This document shows, one piece after another, positions 3,239 through 28,507 of a stretch of DNA of 64,000 bases (positions are counted from its first letter, which is position 1; every line of letters starts with the position of its first letter). Position numbers and translations under genes: made by a program. The notes under the pieces are model-generated. The model ran no database searches. It was given only the letters and a program-made list of their open reading frames with translations, and was not told the DNA's origin. The DNA is from a virus, in IMG/VR virus record IMGVR_UViG_3300045988_074608. One strand, given 5' to 3'.

Positions 3239-3309
3239 TGGACTATGGTGTAACGGTAACACAACAGTTTTTGGCGCTGTTGTTCCAGGTTCGAATCCTG
3301 GTAGTCCAA
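3239..3309 (+). tRNA. tRNA-Gln (anticodon UUG)
   Basis: Hand-folded cloverleaf: acceptor TGGACTA/TAGTCCA, D stem GTGT/ACAC, anticodon stem ACAGT/GCTGT, loop TTTTGGC, T arm CCAGG-TTCGAAT-CCTGG, discriminator A. No encoded CCA. Confidence 0.8.
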
Positions 3310-3342
3310 CAACAACTATCACTCCATTCAGGTATATTCAAC

Positions 3343-7809: not shown

Positions 7810-7837
7810 AAGTGTAGAATCTTAGAATCAGACACTT
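7810..7837 (+). other. hairpin with conserved AGAATCTTAGAATCA loop, copy a
   Basis: AAGTGT / AGAATCTTAGAATCAG / ACACTT. Confidence 0.5.
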
Positions 7838-7907: not shown

Positions 7908-7931
7908 CACAAAGAATCTTAGAATCATGTG
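7908..7931 (+). other. hairpin with conserved AGAATCTTAGAATCA loop, copy b
   Basis: CACA / AAGAATCTTAGAATCA / TGTG. Confidence 0.5.
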
Positions 7932-8077: not shown

Positions 8078-8101
8078 GTTCAAGAATCTCAGAATCAGAA
8101 C
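8078..8101 (+). other. hairpin with conserved AGAATCTCAGAATCA loop, copy c
   Basis: GTTC / AAGAATCTCAGAATCA / GAAC. Confidence 0.5.
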
Positions 8102-8263: not shown

Positions 8264-8387
8264 TGAAATCGTTTGAGTATGAGTTAATTATGTAGGACGA
8301 GGGTTCGAATCCCTCCACGTCCACTCTTATTTATATATAAGGGCGTGACCGGTTTTGACTGCATAAGGAAGTAAATACGAGATTTCA
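8264..8387 (+). ncRNA. circularly permuted tmRNA-like tRNA-like domain plus helix-2-like stem
   Basis: 3' half first: TTATGTA-GGAC-GAGGG-TTCGAAT-CCCTC-CACGTCC-A (8288-8323). A 17-nt linker follows, then the 5' half GGGCGTG-ACCGGTTTTGAC-TGCATAA (8341-8366). The acceptor pairs 7/7 with G8343:T8320 as G3:U70. Flanks pair 8288-8294/8360-8366, 8277-8280/8375-8378 and 8264-8270/8381-8387. Confidence 0.5.
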
Positions 8388-8481
8388 AAAATCGATAAAT
8401 CAGAACAATAACATTGTTGACTATACTCACGTAGCGTGAGTATAAGTCCCGACAATTCCTTGAGTCGGTTGGAAGAATAGG

Positions 8482-8979
8482 ATGGTTGGAGAAGTACTAA
8501 TAATTGGAGTTGTAGGGTTCGAATCCCTACTTCTCCTCAAAAAATTCATAGATATGAGAGGATATAAAGCTATGATTAAAGACAGACTTGTACCAACCTG
8601 GGAGTTAGCACTATTGTGGTGCAAAGCTAAAACTCGTTGGGTTGATACAGTATACAACTGTCATATAAAGAAATTAGGAAACAATAAACAGTTGAAAAAA
8701 GAAACTGTATTATTTGTAACAGGACATAGAAACAAAAATGGAGTTTATTGCAACTTCATGAATACTATTACAAATGATGATTGTTTCAAAGCTAACAATC
8801 CGGAAGAATGGGCATATTGGAATAGCGTATATAATTGGGTGAAATGGTTTTCATCCGAAATGCAGGTAATGAAAGATGATTTGATTACAAAATCTAAATC
8901 TGAATTCCAATCACTTTTTTATGTAAATGATGATTTATATAGATTTTTAAAACGAAATATTCATTTGTACGCATCATGA
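8482..8979 (+). CDS. hypothetical protein; probable start at ATG 8554
   Basis: The first 24 codons of the tracked ORF overlie the tRNA-like element, so MRGYKAM.. (8554) is the more likely start. Confidence 0.5.
   Translation: MVGEVLIIGVVGFESLLLLKKFIDMRGYKAMIKDRLVPTWELALLWCKAKTRWVDTVYNCHIKKLGNNKQLKKETVLFVTGHRNKNGVYCNFMNTITNDDCFKANNPEEWAYWNSVYNWVKWFSSEMQVMKDDLITKSKSEFQSLFYVNDDLYRFLKRNIHLYAS
8488..8536 (+). ncRNA. tRNA-like acceptor/T-arm minihelix (M1)
   Basis: GGAGAAG-[18 nt]-TAGGG-TTCGAAT-CCCTA-CTTCTCC: a perfect 7-bp acceptor-like stem and a canonical T loop. Too short for a cloverleaf. It ends 17 nt before ATG 8554. Confidence 0.5.
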
Positions 8980-12979: not shown

Positions 12980-15034
12980 GGCTATTCAGTCGTAGACATC
13001 TCCGTCAGTACTTATAGTGGGTCTCATTAGCCCATGTACGAAAGAAACTTGATCCGAGAATATGTTAACCTTCTCAAAAGGCGAGATTACTCAAAAGGTA
13101 GGATGAAATGTATTATATGTGAAAAGTATAATATAAGTGGGGAGAGCGTTGTATTAACCCCAACAGCGTTATTGAGAACCGTCTGGCGAATAATGGCTTA
13201 GGAAGACGCGTAAGTCTCAAGAAGAGCAAAACAATCCAGTAGCTAATACTCCTTGTAGTTTTGATGTAGACTACATTGGTAACTGAATACAAGTGTTGAA
13301 ACATATGAAATTCCAAACTTCATATGATACATCATTGCTTAATCTAGTGTTCCACAGCTCCAAACTGTGTATGAAGGGATGAAAATTTTATTAGGGTGTA
13401 AGATAGGATAGAGAAGGACTTAGCAGGTAGTGTGTGAGTCAGATCATACTATTGTCAGTTAGGCTAAGCTACGCAGTAAACGTAGTGTCCAGGGATAAAT
13501 CTGTGCCGTTCGATTCGGCAGCCTTTTGAGCCAAAGAAGGGTCCAGGGATGCAGTAAAGAGTTGAGGCTGAGAAAACTATCTGCTTACAATGAGATAAGA
13601 CCGCCAGGCTTTGGTCGTTTATGCGGTATATAAAAGTAAAATGACTAGATACGTGAAGCAAACTGTATAGCTCCCAGAGTCAGCGTTCATAGGACTGAGG
13701 GCAGGATTATAGTATAAGACATTAGCAATCTTATATTATATGAAATGTGGAATAAAGGTGATTACTTGACAATCAAAAACCACCATTTCGTATTTTATGG
13801 TTTAACATTAAATGCACATTTATAATATAAGCATAACACTCCAGTTATAACCTGAAAATTATAAATGCCTATAAAACATTTACAAGATTAGTATATACAT
13901 ATTCAATATAACATATAATATCTATTATCCTCTATATAAAGAAAAAGAACCATTTGGAATAATGATAGTTATTATATATAATAATAGTGCATATGTTATG
14001 AGTATAAGTAAATATACAAAATCGAGTATTGTAAGGTGTAGGAAAGAAGCTACATATTAAGTTCTAAGATAACATTTATTAACAAAAATTGATGTCCTCC
14101 GTATGGGAACTATACTTCTGTTGTAAAGAAGACCCCTCACGGAAAGTTCGAGTGCCAACCGTTATGATAACCAGTGTAAAGTATACATCCGCAAGTGTAT
14201 ATGTATAGCTAAAGGTAGAATCAATACAGAAAACATAGTAGGCAGCATATTATTAAAATGAGAAATCATACTAGCAGTGCAAAAGCGTATGCCTGTGGGA
14301 CGAACCCACCACGGTCTACACTGTCTCTGTAGGGCGTGAAAATAATATGTGGGTGATAACATGTAAATATGTACAGGGTTGAAATCCCTAATATTCGCGC
14401 ACTATAAACAAACGAGGTTTTTAGCAAGGTTTTCCATCGAATAACCACCGTAGAGTCGTAGATACCCCCTGAAGGCTAGACTGTCCGATAATGAAACGTT
14501 ACTATTGATTATTCTACTCACGTTTAAAAGGAAGAATAGTGGTTGATGCGCCTAAACAGTATCGTAAGACTGTACAGCATCGGGAGAATGTGTTTGTTGT
14601 TATTGGGAAATACACGACCAAGACATTCTCTATTTTATTTTTTTTTGTTGGATAATACACATTATCTCAGCCAATGAACCCTCCGCGATTCCTGAAACAT
14701 CAGAGCGTTGGACGGATGGTGTGTATAAACTTTATTTCAAAAAATCTAGTTTTACTCTAAAAGATTTAGTATGTGATGTACAAAAGGTCATTCAAAGCTT
14801 TCCTATAGAGATATAGGGTTAGTTGTATATACTCATAAGAGGCTAAGCTGTTTCTACCGTTGAAACCCTCTTATGATGACTTACACGGAAAAGCGGTCAA
14901 AAAAAATAAATTGACACCTTTATTTATAAATCTTGAGTATAAAAACTTTAAAGCTTTCTCCGAGCTGAGAGGAGAATAAATATATAATTTATCGTGGGTG
15001 TAATCAAACACGATATCAAATAGGATAAATTATT
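12980..15034. other. 2-kb ORF-free region: two GC-richer hairpin-dense flanks around an AT-rich core
   Basis: No + strand ORF of 60 aa or more. The - strand ORFs are short and overlapping. T-arm-like hairpin TGCCG-TTCGATT-CGGCA at 13504-13520; AT-rich core at about 13740-14060. Confidence 0.6.
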
Positions 15035-15643
15035 ATGGACAATAACAATGTAAATATCAATGTAAGATTAGTGGAAGACAACCGAGTAAATATCAGCAGT
15101 TTTGGTTCGCTTTATGGTAAGCGAATCTTTAAAGCAGTCAAGCTCTCATGTGATCTTGACTTCCAAAAGCGTCTCCGTGATGCAAACGAGAATAACGGAC
15201 TTGTAACTAACCGTGCTCCACAGCGTTATAAGATTGTACCTATTGATATAGTAGGTCTCGATCTTGACAAGGACGTTGACGGAACTAATGTAGTTGTGAT
15301 CAATAAGGGTCGCAAAGACGAGGCTGGCGAGTCTATTGAGGTTCGTTGTCCGATTGACAACGAGAAGTTCACAAAGGATGTTACAACTGAGACTGTAACA
15401 GACGCGTTGAACAAGAAGGATTTTATGACTACATACTTCGCAAACGCAAAGAAGCTTGCTGAGGCATTGAATCCTGCAAATGCAACAGAGATGAACCGTA
15501 TCGATGCTCTCATTCGAGATCTTGAGAAGCAGCGTAAGATGATCCAGGATACATTCGATAAGAATATTTCTGGTGTAAATGATTACTATCGTCAACTCGA
15601 CCAGAAGAAGGGCGAGGTGCGTGTAAATGTAACAGTTGACTAA
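15035..15643 (+). CDS. hypothetical protein (202 aa)
   Basis: Long ATG ORF. The antisense ORFs over it look spurious. Confidence 0.6.
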   Translation: MDNNNVNINVRLVEDNRVNISSFGSLYGKRIFKAVKLSCDLDFQKRLRDANENNGLVTNRAPQRYKIVPIDIVGLDLDKDVDGTNVVVINKGRKDEAGESIEVRCPIDNEKFTKDVTTETVTDALNKKDFMTTYFANAKKLAEALNPANATEMNRIDALIRDLEKQRKMIQDTFDKNISGVNDYYRQLDQKKGEVRVNVTVD

Positions 15644-16269: not shown

Positions 16270-16353
16270 ACCTTCATGGCGGAATTGGTAGACGCTTTGG
16301 ACTTAAAATCCAATGACCATACGGTCGTGCGGGTTCGATCCCCGCTGGAGGTA
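16270..16353 (+). tRNA. tRNA-Leu (anticodon UAA), class II
   Basis: Acceptor ACCTTCA/TGGAGGT (one G:U), D arm GCG-GAATTGGTAGA-CGC, anticodon arm TTGGA-CTTAAAA-TCCAA, long variable arm, T arm GCGGG-TTCGATC-CCCGC. Confidence 0.85.
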
Positions 16354-16413
16354 CAATGTTTTTAGGATAACATTATTATTTATTGTTACTATTTATTATT
16401 TTGTTGAGTTTGT

Positions 16414-17347: not shown

Positions 17348-18166
17348 ATGAAAAAGAATAATATAAGTAAGAACCTCAAGAAAATAGATATAAATACACA
17401 AATAGTAAAACGTTTTGACAATTTTTGTACAACCAAAAGAGCAGAAAATCTCGTTATAGACGTAGATAGACTTGGAATACAAGATCTACTAAAGAAGTAT
17501 GGTCTTAAATATCTTACTAAATTAAGACCTTTTGGTTCAGAATACACAATACGACAATTTATAAGAATGCGTATGGAGAAGATTGGAATAAATCATAATT
17601 ATACGCATATTCACAATGGTGTATTTACCCCAAGAAGAGATATAAATACAAAACTTCCATGGAATCTAACCAAAGAAGAGATAGGTATGATATGGAAGAA
17701 GCGAGAAAATGCTTTCAAATTAGGATATGCAGAGCGTTTGCATATGCTTGAGGATCATAAAGTTGATAAGTGGGAGGAGAAACATCGTCCCACATTTGAG
17801 GAGTTGAAACAGGATTTATTCCCCAGAGCACTATTACAAGGTTTTTTCGACCTTCGAGACAAAAAACGAGAGACTATACGAGAGGATTTAGCTGGAAAAT
17901 ATCCTCCAAAAGATAGTTGTGTTGTTACTGTAAGATTTTATAGTGACGATGGAACTGTTATAAATGAGAAAGTATTCGGACATTTATATGATCCGACAAA
18001 CATAATAAACACACGTCCTAGTTATTATACTGTTCAGAAGAAAAGTAAACGAATTAAATCGGTTGCTACTAAACTTAAAAATAGAGCTATTGCTATATTT
18101 GGCGATGATTTAATTTGTTTGAAAGTATTCTGTCATAATAGTAATAATGTAGGAATGTGGGTTTAA
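17348..18166 (+). CDS. hypothetical protein (272 aa)
   Basis: Long ATG ORF; no recognised motif. Confidence 0.6.
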   Translation: MKKNNISKNLKKIDINTQIVKRFDNFCTTKRAENLVIDVDRLGIQDLLKKYGLKYLTKLRPFGSEYTIRQFIRMRMEKIGINHNYTHIHNGVFTPRRDINTKLPWNLTKEEIGMIWKKRENAFKLGYAERLHMLEDHKVDKWEEKHRPTFEELKQDLFPRALLQGFFDLRDKKRETIREDLAGKYPPKDSCVVTVRFYSDDGTVINEKVFGHLYDPTNIINTRPSYYTVQKKSKRIKSVATKLKNRAIAIFGDDLICLKVFCHNSNNVGMWV

Positions 18167-18192
18167 CAATCTAGACCGACCTTGCGGTTGGA

Positions 18193-18308
18193 ACCCTATT
18201 TTCACATCTCACATAACGTTGTTCTTACAAATCAGTGGATTCGTAGTTGCAAAGTTTTGAATTCAGTACCGAGAAGGGTGAACATCAGGTTCGAGTCCTG
18301 AATAGGGA
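18193..18308 (+). ncRNA. tRNA-like leader element upstream of the DNA polymerase gene (M6)
   Basis: (A)CCCTAT ... TCAGG-TTCGAGT-CCTGA-ATAGGG(A). It has a variable-arm-like hairpin TACC-GAGAAG-GGTG and a 7-bp stem (18236-18242/18259-18265) whose 16-nt loop contains TTGCAAAG. It ends 27 nt before ATG 18336. Confidence 0.5.
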
Positions 18309-18320
18309 ACAATATTAACT

Positions 18321-18338
18321 AAGAATCATAGAATCATG
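18321..18338 (+). promoter_or_regulatory. AAGAATCATAGAATC motif fused to the polymerase start codon
   Basis: AAGAATCATAGAATCATG. Same GAATC-N3-GAATC core as the 7810-8101 hairpin loops. Confidence 0.4.
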
Positions 18339-20246
18339 GTAATACATAACAAAACGGTCATGATTTACGATATCGAAGTTTTTCCTAACACATTTCATTG
18401 TGTGCTATTAAATACAGATAATGAGGAATTATATAAGTTTGAAATATCTGAAAGAAAAAATCAAATACGAGAACTTGTACAATTCTTTACAAATCCTAAA
18501 TACTTATTATGTGGATATAATAACAAACATTACGATGATGTTATTATTAATTACATTATAGATTACCTAGATATAATGCTTTGTAAAAGTATATATGATG
18601 TAACATTATCTTTATTTAATTTATCACAGACGATAATTAATTTGGAAGACGGAAATATTAGTAAAATCAAAAGATGGAAATATGCTAATTATTTCGAATC
18701 AATGGATCTGCTCACAATGATGTTTAGTTCAAAACTCCGTGTTGGATTAAAATCAATGCAGATAACAATGCAATATCAGAATGTACAAGAATATTCTGGA
18801 GATTTTGGTAGTTTTTTACCGAAAGATAAAATTGATGAGATGATTAGTTACAACATTAACGATGTAAAATCGACATATTCACTTTTTAATTACCTTGTTA
18901 AAAATGGAGATATCGATTTGAGATTGTTTATAGAACAAGAGTACGGTTTTAACGCCCTGTCAATGGACAGTGTTAAGTTTGGAGAAACATTGATAGCTAA
19001 AAAAGTTTGTGAAGAATTACACATAAACAAAAGACAACTAGAACAAATGCGATCTCCAATGGACAACATACCATTGAAGGACGTTATATTACCGTTTATA
19101 CGATATAAAAATCCAAAGTTTCAGGAAGCTTTAGAAGATATGAAAAAACAAATAGTATCTTCTAAAAACAAAAAACCTGGAGAAAAAAACTACGAGAACA
19201 AGTTTGTCGTCTCGGGTGTACGATATTCGATTGGCGTAGGCGGAATTCATTCATTGAATGAACCACGAATATACGTTCCTAAAGAAGATGAATATTTGGG
19301 TCACTTAGATGTGGCTTCAATGTATCCGTCATTCATCGTGCGCTATGGGTGGTTTCCTAGGCACTTAGGTAAAGCAGGTCTGGCTGTATATACTCAAATA
19401 TACCATGAGAGAATACAAGCTAAACATAGCGGACAGAAACAAAAGAATTTAGCACTAAAACTAACTTTAAATTCTGTCACAGGAAAAATGCAACAAGAGA
19501 CTAGTTGGATGTACGATCCATTTAGTGTGTTTAAGATCAGGATAAACGGGCAATTAATCCTACTAATGTTGGCAGATTTATTACTACAACATTCTTGTGA
19601 GATTGTGCAAGTAAACACTGATGGTGTAATGTTTATTGCTAAAAAAGCGTACAAAGATGCTATAATGGAATCGGTAGCTAAACTTGAGCAATTAACAAAA
19701 CTCTCTTTTGAAGCAGATAGCTATGAAGCGTTTTATCAGTTCGCTGTCAACGACTACTTTGGTGTGGTTGACGGATTTTCTCAATCTAGAAATCCAAAAC
19801 TGATAGAAAAAAAAGGTATGTTTATAACAGAACCTGTGTTGGGTAAAGGATTAGCACCAACCATTATCCCAGAGGCTGTTATAAACTACTTTGTATATAA
19901 CATTCCAGTAGAAGATACAATACGCAATTGTAATGATATACGTAAATTCTTAATGTCACAACGAGTAGATAAAAAGTTTAAAGTTGAATATGACGATAAA
20001 TATATACAAAGAATTAATCGCTGGTATGCTAGTACAAATGGATGTTATCTATATACAGTAGATGAATCTAAAACACCTGTAAAATACTCAAATCTATTAA
20101 AGAAGAGTGGTGTTACGATTTTAAATTACATAGATGACATATCCACAAAAAACAGAAAAATTAACTATCCTTACTATATAAGTGAGGCACGAAAAATAAT
20201 AGATCAGTTGGTATGTAGACAATTAGATCTATTCCAGTCTTGTTAA
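18336..20246 (+). CDS. family B DNA polymerase with 3'-5' exonuclease domain
   Basis: Exo I DIEVFPN, Exo II-like YNNKHYDD, Exo III YNINDVKS, motif A DVASMYPS, motif B KLTLNSVTGK, motif C VNTDGV. Confidence 0.9.
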   Translation: MVIHNKTVMIYDIEVFPNTFHCVLLNTDNEELYKFEISERKNQIRELVQFFTNPKYLLCGYNNKHYDDVIINYIIDYLDIMLCKSIYDVTLSLFNLSQTIINLEDGNISKIKRWKYANYFESMDLLTMMFSSKLRVGLKSMQITMQYQNVQEYSGDFGSFLPKDKIDEMISYNINDVKSTYSLFNYLVKNGDIDLRLFIEQEYGFNALSMDSVKFGETLIAKKVCEELHINKRQLEQMRSPMDNIPLKDVILPFIRYKNPKFQEALEDMKKQIVSSKNKKPGEKNYENKFVVSGVRYSIGVGGIHSLNEPRIYVPKEDEYLGHLDVASMYPSFIVRYGWFPRHLGKAGLAVYTQIYHERIQAKHSGQKQKNLALKLTLNSVTGKMQQETSWMYDPFSVFKIRINGQLILLMLADLLLQHSCEIVQVNTDGVMFIAKKAYKDAIMESVAKLEQLTKLSFEADSYEAFYQFAVNDYFGVVDGFSQSRNPKLIEKKGMFITEPVLGKGLAPTIIPEAVINYFVYNIPVEDTIRNCNDIRKFLMSQRVDKKFKVEYDDKYIQRINRWYASTNGCYLYTVDESKTPVKYSNLLKKSGVTILNYIDDISTKNRKINYPYYISEARKIIDQLVCRQLDLFQSC

Positions 20247-24449: not shown

Positions 24450-24485
24450 TGTAGATCTGGTGGAGCGTTGACTCCAGTCAACTAA

Positions 24486-24531
24486 GAATGGTAAATATGA
24501 ACTATGGGAGGATCGCAACCTCCTACCATTC
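24486..24531 (+). ncRNA. acceptor/hairpin minihelix in the primase leader (M3)
   Basis: GAATGGTA-[13 nt]-GGAGG-ATCGCAA-CCTCC-TACCATTC. The 8-bp closing stem abuts the hairpin. The loop is not T-loop-like. Confidence 0.35.
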
Positions 24532-24655
24532 CACAGGAAGCTCTATAAAGTCGACGTGAGGAGCAACGTAACACACAGGTTTTCTAATCGATGTAAATCT
24601 AGCCCTGTTTCCAAGCGTATCTTGGATGTGTTCTGACACATGTGTGTATGTCAGG

Positions 24656-24708
24656 GAGAATGGCACAATTGCAAAGGGTGCATAGAAAGTTCGATTCTTT
24701 CCATTCTA
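24656..24708 (+). ncRNA. D-armless tRNA-like leader element upstream of the primase gene (M4)
   Basis: (G)AGAATG-GCAC-AATTGCAAAGG-GTGC-ATA-GAAAG-TTCGATT-CTTTC-CATTCT(A). It has a canonical T loop and shares the loop octamer TTGCAAAG with M6. It ends 28 nt before ATG 24737. Confidence 0.5.
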
Positions 24709-24736
24709 CAAATATTTAGAGCTAAAAGCCAATAAT

Positions 24737-25720
24737 ATGTATAGTACAAAAAAAGCTACAATTGATACATCTTTACGAGATATCATAGAGATGTTAGATG
24801 ATTATGATATCTACTCATATTATATCGGATCTTTTAAAATAAATAAACTTATGAATAGTCCTTTGCGTAATGATGATAAAAATCCATCATTCGCAGTATT
24901 TGTAGGACGAGAAGGTCGTTTATTTTTTAAAGATCATGGTAACGGAGTAGGTGGAAACGCTATAACGTTTGTAAAAACTATTTGTAATATACAATCAAAA
25001 GAAGAATTAGAAAAAGAACTTCTAAGGATTTTGCGAAAACAGAATCCTAATAAAGTAAAAAGGGTTAATATAAAGAAGTACGAATCTGCTCACAATACTG
25101 TAATTGGTATTGCTAGACAACCGTTTACTAATACTGATTTACAGTATTGGGGGCAGTTTCATATTTCTAAATCTACTCTTAACAAATATCGCGTTTTTAG
25201 TATAAAATATTTTCTTTGTAATGGAACCGTCAGAGGAGTCTACAAAGAAACCTGTCCTATGTATGCGTATAAAGTGTATGATAGATTTAAAATCTATAGA
25301 CCTTTAGCTTCCAAGTATACTAAATGGCGTTCTAATCTGACAAATTATGACGTTCAGGGGCTTGCTGAAATACCTCAGGGAGGAGGTGATCTTCTCATCA
25401 TTACAAAATCTTTAAAAGATGTAATGACTCTATATGAGATGGGATATAATGCTATTGCTGCATCTAGTGAAACAACATTTATTCCGGATGAGATATTGAA
25501 TAAACTTCAAACAAAATGGAAGACAATTCTCATTTTATATGATAGAGATGTAACAGGAATGAAAAAAGCTAGAGATTATAGTAGAAAATATCATTTTGAT
25601 GCATTTTTTATTAATAAAAGATTTAAAGCAAAGGATATTTCAGATGCGGTAAAAAATAATTCTTATGATAATGTAAAACAATGGTTAGATAAAGAATTAC
25701 AACGTTATGACAACCTCTAA
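24737..25720 (+). CDS. DNA primase (TOPRIM type)
   Basis: NPSFAVF..FKDHGNGVGGNAITFV N-terminal region. TOPRIM-like LIITKSLKDVMTLYEMGYNAIAASSE and ILYDRDVTG. Confidence 0.7.
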   Translation: MYSTKKATIDTSLRDIIEMLDDYDIYSYYIGSFKINKLMNSPLRNDDKNPSFAVFVGREGRLFFKDHGNGVGGNAITFVKTICNIQSKEELEKELLRILRKQNPNKVKRVNIKKYESAHNTVIGIARQPFTNTDLQYWGQFHISKSTLNKYRVFSIKYFLCNGTVRGVYKETCPMYAYKVYDRFKIYRPLASKYTKWRSNLTNYDVQGLAEIPQGGGDLLIITKSLKDVMTLYEMGYNAIAASSETTFIPDEILNKLQTKWKTILILYDRDVTGMKKARDYSRKYHFDAFFINKRFKAKDISDAVKNNSYDNVKQWLDKELQRYDNL

Positions 25721-27041: not shown

Positions 27042-28002
27042 TATTCCTTATTATGAGGACAAATCTCGAATAAATAATACGGCAATAGGGTGGTTTCTTA
27101 ATCAGGGACCATCCTATTTTCGTAAAAAGATGTCTGGTGAAATACCAGATGAAGAATCACGAGCTATGAGTCGAGGTACCATGATTCATATGTATCTATT
27201 GCAACCAGATGAATTTAAGGAGCGTTATAAAGTTGCAACAATAGTCAGGCCAAAATCAACACAGCAAAGTTTCTTCTGTAGCATATTAGCTAATTCAGTT
27301 GAAATAGAGCCCGATTTAGCCCTTCTAGACGCTTATAAACAAGTGTATAGTATAGTTGGTAAATCTGAAGCTAAAATGCTCTCAGAAGCAAAGGAAATAG
27401 CCTCTACGTTGAGTTCTTATATTGAATCTATTAAAGACACAAAACATATATACATATCTCAAAATGATATGAAAATGTTGGAGTCTATAAGGTTTAATAT
27501 AGATCAACATATAGCTGCAAAACCTTTATTGGATGATCCTGATGCGCACCATGAGTTTCATATAAATTGGGATTTCCCAACGGATGACGGTCGTGCGCTA
27601 TGTAAATCTCTCTTAGACAGTGTTAAATTTGATACCGAAAAGAAAGAATGTACAATAATGGATCTTAAGACAACTATACATATACATAACTTTGAAAAGA
27701 GTGTAGAAGAATATGACTATTTTAGACAATTTATGTTTTATCGTTTGGCTGCAGAATGGTATATACGAAATGAACTACACCAAGATAGCAAAGGGTGGAC
27801 ATTTAGGGTCTACATAATTGCTATTGATACAGTGTCTGACAACGAAGTGAGGGTATTTGAGTTTACTCCGGAACAACTTGAATCTCGTTTCGCTGACATT
27901 AAATCCGTTATATGTGATATAATGTGGTGTGTTAAAACAGGTAACTGGGCACATACTCGTGATTATTATAGAAATAAAGGTATAGAATATTTGAATCTTT
28001 GA
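27028..28002 (+). CDS. PD-(D/E)XK family exonuclease (RecB/Cas4-like fold)
   Basis: ..ECTIMDLKTT.. D-x-K core with upstream acidic residues. Sits in the recombination/replication module. Confidence 0.55.
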   Translation: MMNIDIPYYEDKSRINNTAIGWFLNQGPSYFRKKMSGEIPDEESRAMSRGTMIHMYLLQPDEFKERYKVATIVRPKSTQQSFFCSILANSVEIEPDLALLDAYKQVYSIVGKSEAKMLSEAKEIASTLSSYIESIKDTKHIYISQNDMKMLESIRFNIDQHIAAKPLLDDPDAHHEFHINWDFPTDDGRALCKSLLDSVKFDTEKKECTIMDLKTTIHIHNFEKSVEEYDYFRQFMFYRLAAEWYIRNELHQDSKGWTFRVYIIAIDTVSDNEVRVFEFTPEQLESRFADIKSVICDIMWCVKTGNWAHTRDYYRNKGIEYLNL

Positions 28003-28006
28003 ATCC

Positions 28007-28507
28007 ATGTCTACACAAATTAAATGTATATTACCTTTAATAGATGAACGTTTAACAAAAAATGATATATCTAAAGAAAGTGGTTTTGTAAATGCATATT
28101 TATATGATCAAAACAGACCCTCTTTAGAACAATGTTGTTTTTTATTATATGATAATTCTGTAAGATCTAAACAGCAAATGTTAACGTGGACTAAATTACG
28201 TGAACTTAAATTGTTAAGATCTATAAAGGTAATTTATGTAAATAAAAAATCATATACAGTATATGCATTTCAATTCTTTGATACAGCTAGTAAATATCTT
28301 TTTAAAGGTAGGAATCCTAAAGGAAATCAGATTGCTCGTATTTTGTATTTTTGGGGCAATAATGATGACGACTTGAACAACCGTCTCTTTAATTCCAATC
28401 TAAAGGTATACGGTGTAGATACATCGTCTGTCCCTGAAGAAGATTACGCTATGGATGCCAAAGAGTTCAGAGAAATGTATAAAAAAAGGGTGGTGATTAA
28501 TAAATAA
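28007..28507 (+). CDS. hypothetical protein (166 aa), last + strand gene
   Basis: ATG ORF. Converges on the - strand module. Confidence 0.5.
   Translation: MSTQIKCILPLIDERLTKNDISKESGFVNAYLYDQNRPSLEQCCFLLYDNSVRSKQQMLTWTKLRELKLLRSIKVIYVNKKSYTVYAFQFFDTASKYLFKGRNPKGNQIARILYFWGNNDDDLNNRLFNSNLKVYGVDTSSVPEEDYAMDAKEFREMYKKRVVINK

What the first reader, a model, noticed from the sequence alone, without database searches (positions are those of the whole stretch)
18193..18338. A tRNA-like leader ends 27 nt before the DNA polymerase start, paralogous to the primase leader
(A)CCCTAT pairs with ATAGGG(A) right after a canonical T arm, TCAGG-TTCGAGT-CCTGA. Before the T arm there is a variable-arm-like hairpin (TACC-GAGAAG-GGTG) and a 7-bp stem whose 16-nt loop contains TTGCAAAG. 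The same octamer sits in the anticodon-arm-like loop of the element before the primase gene (24656-24708). Both elements end 27-28 nt before the ATG, and both are followed by ACAA(A)TATT(T)A. It does not fold into a normal cloverleaf by hand. An acceptor stem with a T arm is the minimal substrate for RNase P and the CCA-adding enzyme. These elements could therefore be processing or punctuation signals, or translational operators, for replication genes.
Basis: partly seen in the sequence, partly recalled or inferred. Interest (0 to 1): 0.7.

Follow-up and report, generated by a model that had tools for sequence, protein, structure and literature searches.

The report
tRNA-like punctuation before phage replication genes
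Just upstream of the DNA polymerase and primase genes, this gut crAss-like phage carries stripped-down tRNA look-alikes that keep only the parts read by tRNA-cutting enzymes, and in over a hundred relatives a real tRNA or such a look-alike usually sits at the same spot, so they probably mark where long transcripts are cut into separate messages.

Summary
The element is real. It has a 6-bp acceptor stem (18194-18199/18302-18307) and a canonical T arm (18285-18301). It ends 27 nt before the polymerase ATG. It is not a tRNA: ARAGORN finds nothing with or without introns, and Rfam finds nothing even at E<=10.

The structure covaries in four diverged relatives, with no broken pair. A two-part helix (P2a/P2b) replaces the D and anticodon arms. 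It carries a conserved A/GG internal loop and a hypervariable 44-83 nt tip.

The window holds three such elements: before the polymerase, before the primase, and directly after a permuted tmRNA gene at 8488-8536.

I compared 112 distinct polymerase upstream regions from Crassvirales (Suoliviridae). Seventy-eight have a T-loop motif 30-62 nt before the ATG, against 1.5% of shuffles. Twenty-two have a bona fide tRNA there, of eight amino-acid identities. The rest are mostly anticodon-less look-alikes.

Best reading (about 0.5): these are RNase P/RNase Z processing signals, like plant-mitochondrial t-elements or mascRNA. No cleavage was shown. It is a new variant of a known kind and is absent from Rfam and RefSeq annotation.

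The parts
18176..18191 (+). Hairpin H0 (CCGACC-TTGC-GGTTGG). It ends 2 nt before the tRNA-like element and lies just after the stop codon of ORF 17348-18166.
   Evidence: Conserved in the close clade. L018 has CCAATC/GGTTGG, so pairing is kept through two one-sided changes. A stable hairpin right upstream of the element is seen in 41% of relatives against 6% of shuffles.
18194..18199 (+). Acceptor stem, 5' strand (CCCTAT). A18193 faces A18308 unpaired.
   Evidence: It covaries with the 3' strand: CCCCG/CGGGG in L017 and CCCTG/CAGGG in L021.
18201..18210 (+). P2a 5' strand TTCAC (18201-18205), bulged A18206, P2b 5' strand TCTC (18207-18210).
   Evidence: P2a is TTCAC/GTGAA, ATCAC/GTGAT, TCTAT/ATAGA or ACTAC/GTAGT. 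P2b is TCTC/GAGA, ATTC/GAAT, ACC/GGT or ATTCAC/GTGAAT. No pair is broken.
18211..18270 (+). Hypervariable tip of the long arm.
   Evidence: Its length is 44-83 nt and it cannot be aligned among relatives whose polymerase is 89% identical.
18271..18282 (+). P2b 3' strand GAGA (18271-18274), internal loop AGG (18275-18277; the GG is conserved), P2a 3' strand GTGAA (18278-18282).
   Evidence: That the GG acts like the D-loop G18/G19 of a tRNA is my inference.
18285..18301 (+). T arm: TCAGG / TTCGAGT / CCTGA.
   Evidence: TCTGG/CCAGA in L017.
18302..18310 (+). Acceptor stem 3' strand ATAGGG (18302-18307), then A, A, C. No CCA is encoded.
   Evidence: The same N73-CAA trailer follows both real tRNAs and all three look-alikes in the window.
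18309..18335 (+). Conserved 27-nt leader ACAATATTAACTAAGAATCATAGAATC, with tandem AGAATC at 18322-18327 and 18330-18335.
   Evidence: The family consensus is TATTAAC..AGARYC-TT-WGARYC-ATG. The leader is also present where the tRNA-like element is absent.
18336..20246 (+). DNA polymerase gene.
   Evidence: PHROG 1252, E = 1.1e-137.
24633..24654 (+). Hairpin CTGACA-CATGTGTGTA-TGTCAG, directly 5' of the primase element.
   Evidence: It covaries: CTGGC/GCCAG in L004 and CTGAT/ATCAG in L005.
24656..24709 (+). Primase tRNA-like element without a D arm. Acceptor AGAATG/CATTCT (24657-62/24702-07), arm GCAC-loop11-GTGC (24663-81), T arm GAAAG-TTCGATT-CTTTC (24685-24701), tail AC.
   Evidence: Nine distinct versions in relatives all keep the acceptor stem and T arm. 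The middle part is 11-90 nt and the tail to the ATG is 18-29 nt.
24737..25720 (+). DnaG-type primase gene.
   Evidence: PHROG 12622, E = 3e-35, with weak Toprim and zinc-finger Pfam hits.
8488..8537 (+). Third, minimal tRNA-like element: GGAGAAG / 18-nt linker / TAGGG-TTCGAAT-CCCTA / CTTCTCC, then T. It lies 48 nt after the tag stop of the permuted tmRNA and 17 nt before ATG 8554.
   Evidence: Weak mascRNA hit of 22.5 bits. Conserved, with a variable middle, upstream of the same ORF in distant crAss-like relatives.

Best explanation
The element is a tRNA-derived RNA that keeps only the acceptor-stem/T-arm stack, which is the part that tRNA end-processing enzymes recognise. It acts as a punctuation mark inside a long early or replication-module transcript.

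Proposed steps, all inferred:
1. Host RNase P cuts at the 5' edge, around 18193/18194. The upstream message is left ending in the protective hairpin 18176-18191.
2. RNase Z, or another tRNA 3'-end nuclease, cuts after the discriminator, around 18309.
3. This releases a look-alike RNA of about 115 nt and creates the polymerase mRNA with a defined, conserved 26-27 nt leader.

The elements before the primase gene and after the tmRNA gene would work the same way. In relatives a genuine tRNA does the same job at the same position.

Shown here: the structure, its covariation, its fixed position, and its interchange with real tRNAs.
Inferred: co-transcription, the cleavages, and the enzymes involved.
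For: 1. Structure. In the close clade every pair of the acceptor stem, P2a, P2b and T stem is kept, with two-sided compensatory changes, while the tip of the arm is unalignable.
2. Family-wide conservation. 78 of 112 distinct polymerase upstream regions carry a T-loop motif 30-62 nt before the ATG, against 1.5% of shuffles. In 32 distinct non-tRNA T arms, pairs 50:64, 51:63 and 52:62 are formed in 31-32 of 32 cases, using 2-5 pair types each. The search motif did not require these pairs.
3. Interchange with real tRNAs. 22 relatives have a bona fide tRNA ending 18-27 nt before the ATG. The identities are Leu, Met, Asn, Ile, Ser, Ala, Lys and Val.
4. Selective loss. The anticodon region is replaced by tetraloop hairpins, linkers of about 11-22 nt, or long arms.
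5. Repetition. The same module sits before the primase gene in all nine distinct versions and directly after the tmRNA gene.
6. Shared 3' trailer. Both real tRNAs and all three look-alikes in the window have N73-CAA and no encoded CCA.
7. Upstream hairpin. A hairpin directly 5' of the element is enriched, 41% against 6%, and covaries at both loci.
8. No room for a separate promoter. There is no terminator-like site, and only 27 nt lie between the element and the ATG.
9. Precedent. Plant-mitochondrial t-elements were found with the same GGTTCRANYCC screen, and their ends coincide with mapped mRNA ends (PMC1920247).
Against: - There are no transcript-end data and no cleavage assay.
- The element is not indispensable. 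Dulem virus 42 and about six other relatives (L022, L023, L027, L086, L104, L106) have the conserved leader right after the upstream gene and no element.
- The acceptor stem is short: 6 bp plus an A.A mismatch here, and 5 bp in L017 and L021. That gives a stack of 11-12 positions, against 12 bp in a tRNA.
- Folding energy is not exceptional, z about -1.
- The fixed distance could partly reflect descent from an ancestral tRNA-leader-polymerase arrangement rather than selection.
- The conserved leader could contain a phage promoter. In that case the polymerase mRNA 5' end would come from initiation, and only the upstream 3' end from processing.
Confidence: 0.5

Rival explanations
1. The look-alike stays attached to the mRNA. 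Only the 5' cut happens, or none. The compact tRNA-shaped fold then acts as a 5' stabiliser or translation enhancer for messages in a Bacteroidota host, which makes little use of Shine-Dalgarno pairing.
For: The element always lies a short, fixed distance (mostly 24-29 nt) from the start codon, with a G-poor conserved leader in between. The fold is conserved.
Against: Where a genuine tRNA occupies the position (22 relatives) it must be cut off to function as a tRNA. The third element follows a non-coding tmRNA gene. The polymerase leader works without the element in Dulem virus 42.
Confidence: 0.15
2. The elements are decaying tRNA genes, or free-standing small tRNA-like RNAs such as decoys for tRNA-targeting host defences. 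They sit next to the polymerase gene only because this phage family keeps its tRNA array there. They have no role in cis for the neighbouring gene.
For: tRNA arrays lie directly upstream of the element in several relatives, for example L036, L059 and L060. Many further mini-elements are scattered in the 1.5 kb upstream of the polymerase gene in relatives, and some have no nearby ATG. The middle part evolves freely.
Against: Plain decay would not keep the acceptor and T stems paired through compensatory changes in 32 distinct versions while everything else is lost. In the window the two real tRNAs are not close to a long ORF (>=100 aa) start, whereas all three look-alikes are 17-28 nt from one. 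A trans-acting small RNA is not excluded, and it would still need the same processing.
Confidence: 0.17
3. The element is a translational operator. A phage protein, for example the polymerase itself as with T4 gp43, binds the structure and the adjacent leader to regulate the replication genes.
For: Both replication genes carry it. The leader has a conserved tandem AGARYC repeat that ends at the ATG and looks like a protein-binding site.
Against: The structured part has no conserved sequence beyond generic tRNA features and can be replaced by eight different tRNAs. It can be absent while the leader is kept. The leader repeat also occurs without any tRNA-like element, at 7914 and 27993. Any operator is therefore more likely the leader than the look-alike.
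Confidence: 0.06
4. The feature acts at the DNA level. It would be a recombination or insertion hotspot, or the remnant of an attachment site made from a tRNA gene fragment.
For: The element is present or absent at a precise junction, between the stop codon and ATATTAAC. A GGAAC direct repeat flanks the element in the close clade and in cr52_1.
Against: The element carries both acceptor strands, and its helices covary as RNA pairs, including G-U pairs. No integrase was seen among the neighbouring genes tested. All copies lie on the transcribed strand: 5 on the + strand and 0 on the - strand.
Confidence: 0.05

Closest known systems
Plant-mitochondrial t-elements (Forner et al. 2007, PMC1920247)
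   Same: They are non-canonical tRNA-like structures that keep the GGTTCRANYCC T arm and an acceptor stem. They are embedded next to protein-coding genes, and canonical tRNAs play the same role at other genes. Their ends coincide with mRNA 5' and 3' ends attributed to RNase Z and RNase P.
   Different: They occur in an organelle, not a virus. Distances to the ATG are much longer and more variable there (-66 to -241). Here the element is positionally conserved across more than 100 genomes and paired with a conserved leader. No transcript ends have been mapped here.
mascRNA / MEN-beta tRNA-like elements of MALAT1 and NEAT1 (Rfam RF01684)
   Same: They are tRNA-like modules without a decoding function, cut out by RNase P and RNase Z. 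The upstream RNA's new 3' end is protected by an adjacent structure (from established knowledge). Here a hairpin sits 1-2 nt upstream of the element.
   Different: There is no homology. The polymerase element gives no hit at all, and the minimal element at 8488 reaches only 22.5 bits against a threshold of 42.5. The context is bacterial-virus rather than eukaryotic nuclear. mascRNA has a cloverleaf, whereas these elements lack the D arm.
Mitochondrial tRNA punctuation, and bacterial tRNA-mRNA co-transcripts such as the E. coli tufB operon (established knowledge)
   Same: tRNA-shaped units between genes define where polycistronic RNA is cut. In 22 relatives the unit before the polymerase gene is a real tRNA.
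   Different: In this phage the unit has lost its anticodon and D arm, so processing would be its only remaining tRNA-like property.
tRNA-like domain of tmRNA
   Same: The topology is the same: acceptor stem, then a long helix leaving the junction in place of the anticodon arm, then the T arm. A real permuted tmRNA gene lies in the same window.
   Different: There is no tag reading frame and no pseudoknots were detected. Position 3:70 is C-G rather than G-U. Rfam tmRNA models do not hit 18193-18310.
T4/RB69 gp43 translational operator (established knowledge)
   Same: It is an RNA structure just upstream of a phage DNA polymerase start codon.
   Different: The gp43 operator is a small specific hairpin overlapping the ribosome-binding site. 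Here the structure ends 27 nt upstream, has no conserved specific sequence, and can be replaced by tRNAs.

Membership tests
Canonical tRNA (Rfam RF00005) | Cloverleaf with a D arm and a 7-nt anticodon loop, detectable by tRNA finders. | tested here: not met
   ARAGORN default finds only tRNA-Gln at 3239 and tRNA-Leu at 16270. Rfam has no match in 17900-18500 even at E<=10. Only at an 80% threshold does ARAGORN call 18222-18310, among about 27 spurious calls, and that acceptor pairing is not kept in relatives.
Canonical tRNA (Rfam RF00005) | Acceptor stem stacked on a T arm with a TTCRANY loop and a G53-C61 closing pair. | tested here: met
   The acceptor stem is 6 bp, not 7.
Intron-containing tRNA | A normal cloverleaf once an insertion in the anticodon loop is removed. 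| tested here: not met
   ARAGORN with -i0,300 finds nothing new. There is no D arm. In relatives the arm ends in tetraloops or variable sequence.
tmRNA (RF00023, RF04321 and related models) | A tRNA-like domain plus a tag reading frame, and a match to a tmRNA covariance model. | tested here: not met
   No Rfam match for the polymerase element. The true permuted tmRNA is elsewhere, at 8264-8439, with 62 bits.
tRNA-like processing signals (t-elements, mascRNA type; a functional class, not a homology family) | Retains the acceptor stem and T arm but lacks a usable anticodon arm. | tested here: met
tRNA-like processing signals (t-elements, mascRNA type; a functional class, not a homology family) | Lies inside a transcription unit next to a gene boundary, interchangeably with real tRNAs. 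| tested here: met
   It ends 27 nt before the ATG and starts 27 nt after the upstream stop codon. There is no terminator-like site between them. Real tRNAs occupy the same place in 22 relatives. Co-transcription itself is inferred.
tRNA-like processing signals (t-elements, mascRNA type; a functional class, not a homology family) | Transcript ends coincide with the element's edges, and RNase P and RNase Z cleave it. | not testable with these tools
   Needs RNA-seq or RACE and enzyme assays.
mascRNA-menRNA (Rfam RF01684) | Match to the covariance model at its gathering score of 42.5 bits. | tested here: not met
   No hit for the polymerase or primase elements. The element at 8488-8536 scores 22.5 bits.
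Autogenous polymerase operator (T4 gp43 type) | A specific conserved hairpin at the ribosome-binding site. | tested here: not met
   The sequence is interchangeable. The element is absent in Dulem virus 42 although the leader is conserved. Protein binding was not tested.
Phage attachment site derived from a tRNA gene | Only the 3' part of a host tRNA gene, next to an integrase gene. | tested here: not met
   Both acceptor strands are present and covary. Neighbouring genes are replication genes or unknowns. Not every ORF in the window was screened.

The most novel reading that the evidence does not exclude
Crassvirales of the Suoliviridae family run a mitochondrion-like 'tRNA punctuation' system. 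Anticodon-less tRNA derivatives, freely exchanged with real tRNAs, cut long early transcripts into individual replication-gene mRNAs and also release the phage's own two-piece tmRNA. Host RNase P and RNase Z would then be obligatory factors for phage replication-gene expression. The excised look-alikes might have a second life as small RNAs.
Probability: 0.4. Interest if true: 0.75.

Novelty: new variant of a known kind. Interest (0 to 1): 0.62.

Why it matters
Crassvirales are among the most abundant viruses of the human gut, and little is known about how their transcripts are made and matured.

If these elements are processing signals, three things follow:
- They define the mRNA boundaries of the replication genes.
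- They tie phage gene expression to host tRNA-processing enzymes.
- They explain the 'pseudo-tRNAs' that annotation pipelines report or miss in these genomes. RefSeq leaves the regions blank.

They are also a clean natural experiment on which parts of a tRNA are needed for processing alone. The acceptor stem and T arm are kept, and everything else is free to vary.

The claim can be tested directly with existing gut metatranscriptomes or with any cultured relative.

Tried and rejected
- **Standard or intron-containing tRNA.** Rejected.
- **Unusual amber suppressor tRNA.** The late genes are TAG-recoded, so I looked for one. None of the three elements has a CUA in a plausible anticodon loop.
- **TTGCAAAG as a shared functional motif.** Not significant and not conserved.
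- **The low-threshold ARAGORN cloverleaf using TTCTTAC as the acceptor 5' strand.** Rejected because CCCTAT/ATAGGG is the pairing that covaries.
- **MAFFT alignments for the count of structure pairs or a covariance model.** A1, A2 and A3 misplace the 5' acceptor strands, because only the T loop is conserved in sequence. I therefore tabulated pairs from hand-set segments checked by script. No covariance model was built.
- **Leader-motif scan of viral contigs.** Only already-known relatives and unrelated chance matches.
- **Sigma-70 promoter scan.** Uninformative: 45 sites against 47 expected. It is also the wrong promoter type for Bacteroidota.
- **Thermodynamic z-scores.** Unremarkable.
- **Six literature searches.** No description of such elements in phages.

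Full report
**Context**

The window comes from a phage of about 95-100 kb.
- Its closest public records are IMG/VR contigs with 99% polymerase identity.
- In GenBank the closest are Dulem virus 42 (68% protein identity) and the 'uncultured phage crNNN_1' genomes. Those are classified as Crassvirales, Suoliviridae: cr131_1 (Cacepaovirus) at 65% and cr52_1 (Buchavirus) at 51%.
- Genes on the + strand up to about 28.5 kb form the early and replication module. It includes a DNA polymerase at 18336-20246 (PHROG 1252, E = 1e-137), a DnaB-like helicase, and a DnaG-like primase at 24737-25720.
- The - strand genes beyond 28.6 kb are readable only if TAG is a sense codon. The longest frame is 510 aa under the standard code and 5957 aa with TAG read through.

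**Checking the observation**

The sequence is as described.
- CCCTAT (18194-18199) pairs with ATAGGG (18302-18307).
- The T arm TCAGG-TTCGAGT-CCTGA (18285-18301) directly precedes the acceptor 3' strand.
- The element ends 27 nt before the ATG.
- The primase element has acceptor AGAATG/CATTCT, a 4-bp arm with an 11-nt loop, and the T arm GAAAG-TTCGATT-CTTTC. It ends 28 nt before its ATG.

Neither element is a tRNA.
- ARAGORN finds only tRNA-Gln (3239-3310) and tRNA-Leu (16270-16354), with or without introns.
- Rfam finds nothing in either region at E<=10 apart from noise.

The features exceed chance.
- GTTCRANTC occurs 11 times against 4.0 expected.
- A strict scan for a T arm plus acceptor stem finds five sites, all on the + strand. 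Dinucleotide shuffles give a mean of 0.68 for both strands.
- Two of the five are the real tRNAs. The other three are the polymerase element, the primase element, and a third minimal element at 8488-8536.

- TTGCAAAG is not significantly enriched. It is already mutated in a relative with a 99% identical polymerase (L016) and is absent in L017, L018 and L021.
- The proposed variable-arm hairpin conflicts with helices that covary.

**Anatomy from comparison**

Four diverged lineages of the close clade (window/L014/L016, L017, L018, L021; polymerase 89-99% identical) share one architecture. I verified the segment order by script.

The order, from 5' to 3', is:
- hairpin H0
- AA
- acceptor 5' strand
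- P2a
- a bulged A
- P2b
- a variable tip of 44-83 nt
- P2b'
- (A)GG
- P2a'
- a 2-nt spacer
- T arm
- acceptor 3' strand
- AAC

Every helix is fully paired in every lineage. Two-sided changes include:
- Acceptor stem: T-A to C-G, and A-T to G-C.
- P2a: changes at four of its five positions.
- P2b: changes at two positions.
- T stem: A-T to T-A.

The topology is that of a tRNA without a D arm, or of a tmRNA tRNA-like domain. One irregular arm leaves the junction between the acceptor stem and the T arm. The conserved GG in the internal loop may play the role of the D-loop G18/G19 in forming the tRNA elbow. That last point is my inference.

**The wider pattern**

I collected 145 polymerase loci from IMG/VR and metagenomes, which gave 112 distinct upstream regions.
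- In 22 regions ARAGORN finds a genuine tRNA ending 18-27 nt before the ATG. The identities are Leu, Met, Asn, Ile, Ser, Ala, Lys and Val. Rfam confirms two of them at about 60 bits.
- With rigid geometry, another 34 regions have an acceptor stem plus T arm that is not a tRNA. Shuffled sequences give 1.3%.
- Many of the regions left as 'none' are look-alikes by eye, with a 5-bp acceptor stem or an odd T loop.
- Using only a sequence anchor for the T loop, 78 of 112 regions have one 30-62 nt before the ATG, against 1.5% of shuffles.
- In the 32 distinct non-tRNA T arms, the three stem pairs that the anchor did not require are formed in 31-32 of 32 cases, using two to five pair types each.
- Position 72 lies mostly 24-29 nt from the ATG.

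The middle of these elements differs between classes. It may be a hairpin capped by a tetraloop where the anticodon loop should be, a bare linker of about 11-22 nt, or a long arm.

The primase gene shows the same pattern. Nine distinct versions all keep a fully paired acceptor stem and T stem. The middle part is 11-90 nt and the tail to the ATG is 18-29 nt.

The third element follows the tag stop codon of a permuted tmRNA gene (Rfam, 62 bits). It precedes ORF 8554-8979 by 17 nt. Distant crAss-like relatives keep an equivalent element there, again with a variable middle.

RefSeq genomes cr131_1 and cr52_1 have such elements in unannotated gaps before the polymerase gene.

A few relatives have no element at all. 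Dulem virus 42 is one, together with L022, L023, L027, L086, L104 and L106. In them the conserved leader starts right after the upstream stop codon.

**Neighbouring features**

- A stable hairpin ends 0-4 nt before the element far more often than in shuffles: 41% against 6% at -5 kcal/mol or lower.
- In the window both hairpins covary. These are H0 at 18176-18191 and CTGACA/TGTCAG at 24633-24654.
- The leader between the element and the ATG is conserved family-wide as TATTAAC..AGARYC-TT-WGARYC-ATG.
- The same tandem motif occurs without any tRNA-like element at 7817, 7914 (followed by an ATG), 8084 and 27993 (ATG at 28007). The leader and the look-alike are therefore separable modules.
- No terminator-like site lies between the upstream ORF and the polymerase gene, and 27 nt leave little room for a separate promoter.
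- Both real tRNAs and all three look-alikes in the window have the same trailer, N73-CAA, and no encoded CCA.

**Interpretation**

What selection preserves is exactly the acceptor/T-arm stack. From established knowledge of tRNA maturation, that stack is sufficient for recognition by RNase P, RNase Z and the CCA-adding enzyme. What is free to vary is everything needed for aminoacylation and decoding.

Real tRNAs at the same position must be cut out to function. That cut necessarily creates the downstream mRNA's 5' end.

The most economical reading is therefore that the look-alikes are processing signals:
- RNase P sets the 3' end of the upstream RNA, which is then protected by the adjacent hairpin.
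- A 3' nuclease sets the 5' end of the polymerase, primase or ORF8554 message.

I put this at about 0.5, because no RNA end or cleavage was observed and the element can be absent.

The rivals, detailed in the Rival explanations section, are:
- the fold staying on the mRNA as a stabiliser or enhancer (0.15)
- decaying tRNAs or free-standing small RNAs with no role in cis (0.17)
- a protein operator (0.06)
- a DNA-level hotspot (0.05)

**Comparison with known systems**

- The closest functional analogue is the plant-mitochondrial t-element. It was found with the same T-arm motif, and its ends coincide with mapped mRNA ends, alongside canonical tRNAs that do the same job (PMC1920247).
- mascRNA of MALAT1 is similar in logic, but there is no homology. 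The only hit is a sub-threshold 22.5 bits for the minimal element.
- The element is not a tRNA, an intron-containing tRNA or a tmRNA by the tests run here.
- Six full-text searches found no description of such elements in phages. One preprint on a crAss-like phage mentions low-scoring 'tRNA-like' pseudogenes without interpreting them.

**Verdict**

This is a real, conserved, structured RNA element. It is a new variant of a known kind: tRNA-like processing signals, here in an abundant family of gut phages. Its positional conservation and its interchange with real tRNAs are unusually clear. The proposed mechanism is inferred and can be tested directly.

Noticed in passing
window 8264-8439 (+): A permuted (two-piece) tmRNA gene: Rfam RF04321, 62 bits against a threshold of 47. 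The T arm and acceptor 3' strand (CACGTCC-ACTC) come first, then the 5' strand GGGCGTG, then a tag frame ending ...AAT AAC ATT GTT GAC TAT ACT CAC GTA GCG TGA. The tag region is conserved in distant crAss-like relatives (L184-L216, ...NNIVDYTNVA*).
   Followed up: partly
window 28600-64000 (- strand): The late genes are readable only with TAG as a sense codon. The longest frame is 510 aa under the standard code and 5957 aa with TAG read through. TGA or TAA recoding gives no such gain. No tRNA with a CUA anticodon was found in these 64 kb. The rest of the genome was not available.
   Followed up: partly
window 7817-7829, 7914-7926, 8084-8096, 18323-18335, 27993-28005 (+): The tandem motif GAATCNNAGAATC occurs 6 times within one mismatch, against 1.7 expected. 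Three copies abut an ATG (7927, 18336, 28007). Family-wide, the polymerase leader consensus is AGARYC-TT-WGARYC-ATG. It could be a translation signal, a protein-binding site or a phage promoter. It contains two GANTC sites.
   Followed up: partly
window 12980-15035: About 2 kb with no ORF longer than 67 aa on either strand and no Rfam match. A T-arm-like TGCCG-TTCGATT-CGGCA sits at about 13504-13520, but I found no convincing acceptor stem for it.
   Followed up: partly
window 24450-24632 (+): The 180 nt upstream of the primase element are non-coding but conserved in L002-L005. They contain a covarying hairpin AGAATGGTA...TACCATTC (AGAGTGG/CCACTC in L005). Its 5' strand repeats the acceptor sequence AGAATGG, so alternative pairing with 24702-24708 is possible.
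   Followed up: no
L001 14428-14452 (Dulem virus 42, PP511876): The annotated primase CDS starts at an ATG inside the acceptor 3' strand (CATGCTC) of the tRNA-like element. The start that aligns with this window (ATGTATAGTACAAAAA) is 24 nt downstream and in frame, so the GenBank start is probably 8 codons too early.
   Followed up: partly
L006 about 1400-1475; L053:377-416, L058:339-378, L031:443-483, L050:433-474, L034:495-544: Other look-alike classes occur in relatives. One is a full cloverleaf with a 5-nt 'anticodon' loop before the primase gene (L006). Another is a recurrent class, CGGTGTT-GGCGC...-ATCGAKG T loop, followed by a conserved TTYGATTTAAGSC motif and a hairpin rather than by an ATG.
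   Followed up: no
window 18190-18194 and 18306-18310; same in L017, L021, cr52_1 (L220): A 5-nt direct repeat GGAAC brackets the polymerase element (GGAAC|CCTAT ... ATAG|GGAAC). It could be a structural constraint or a trace of insertion.
   Followed up: no
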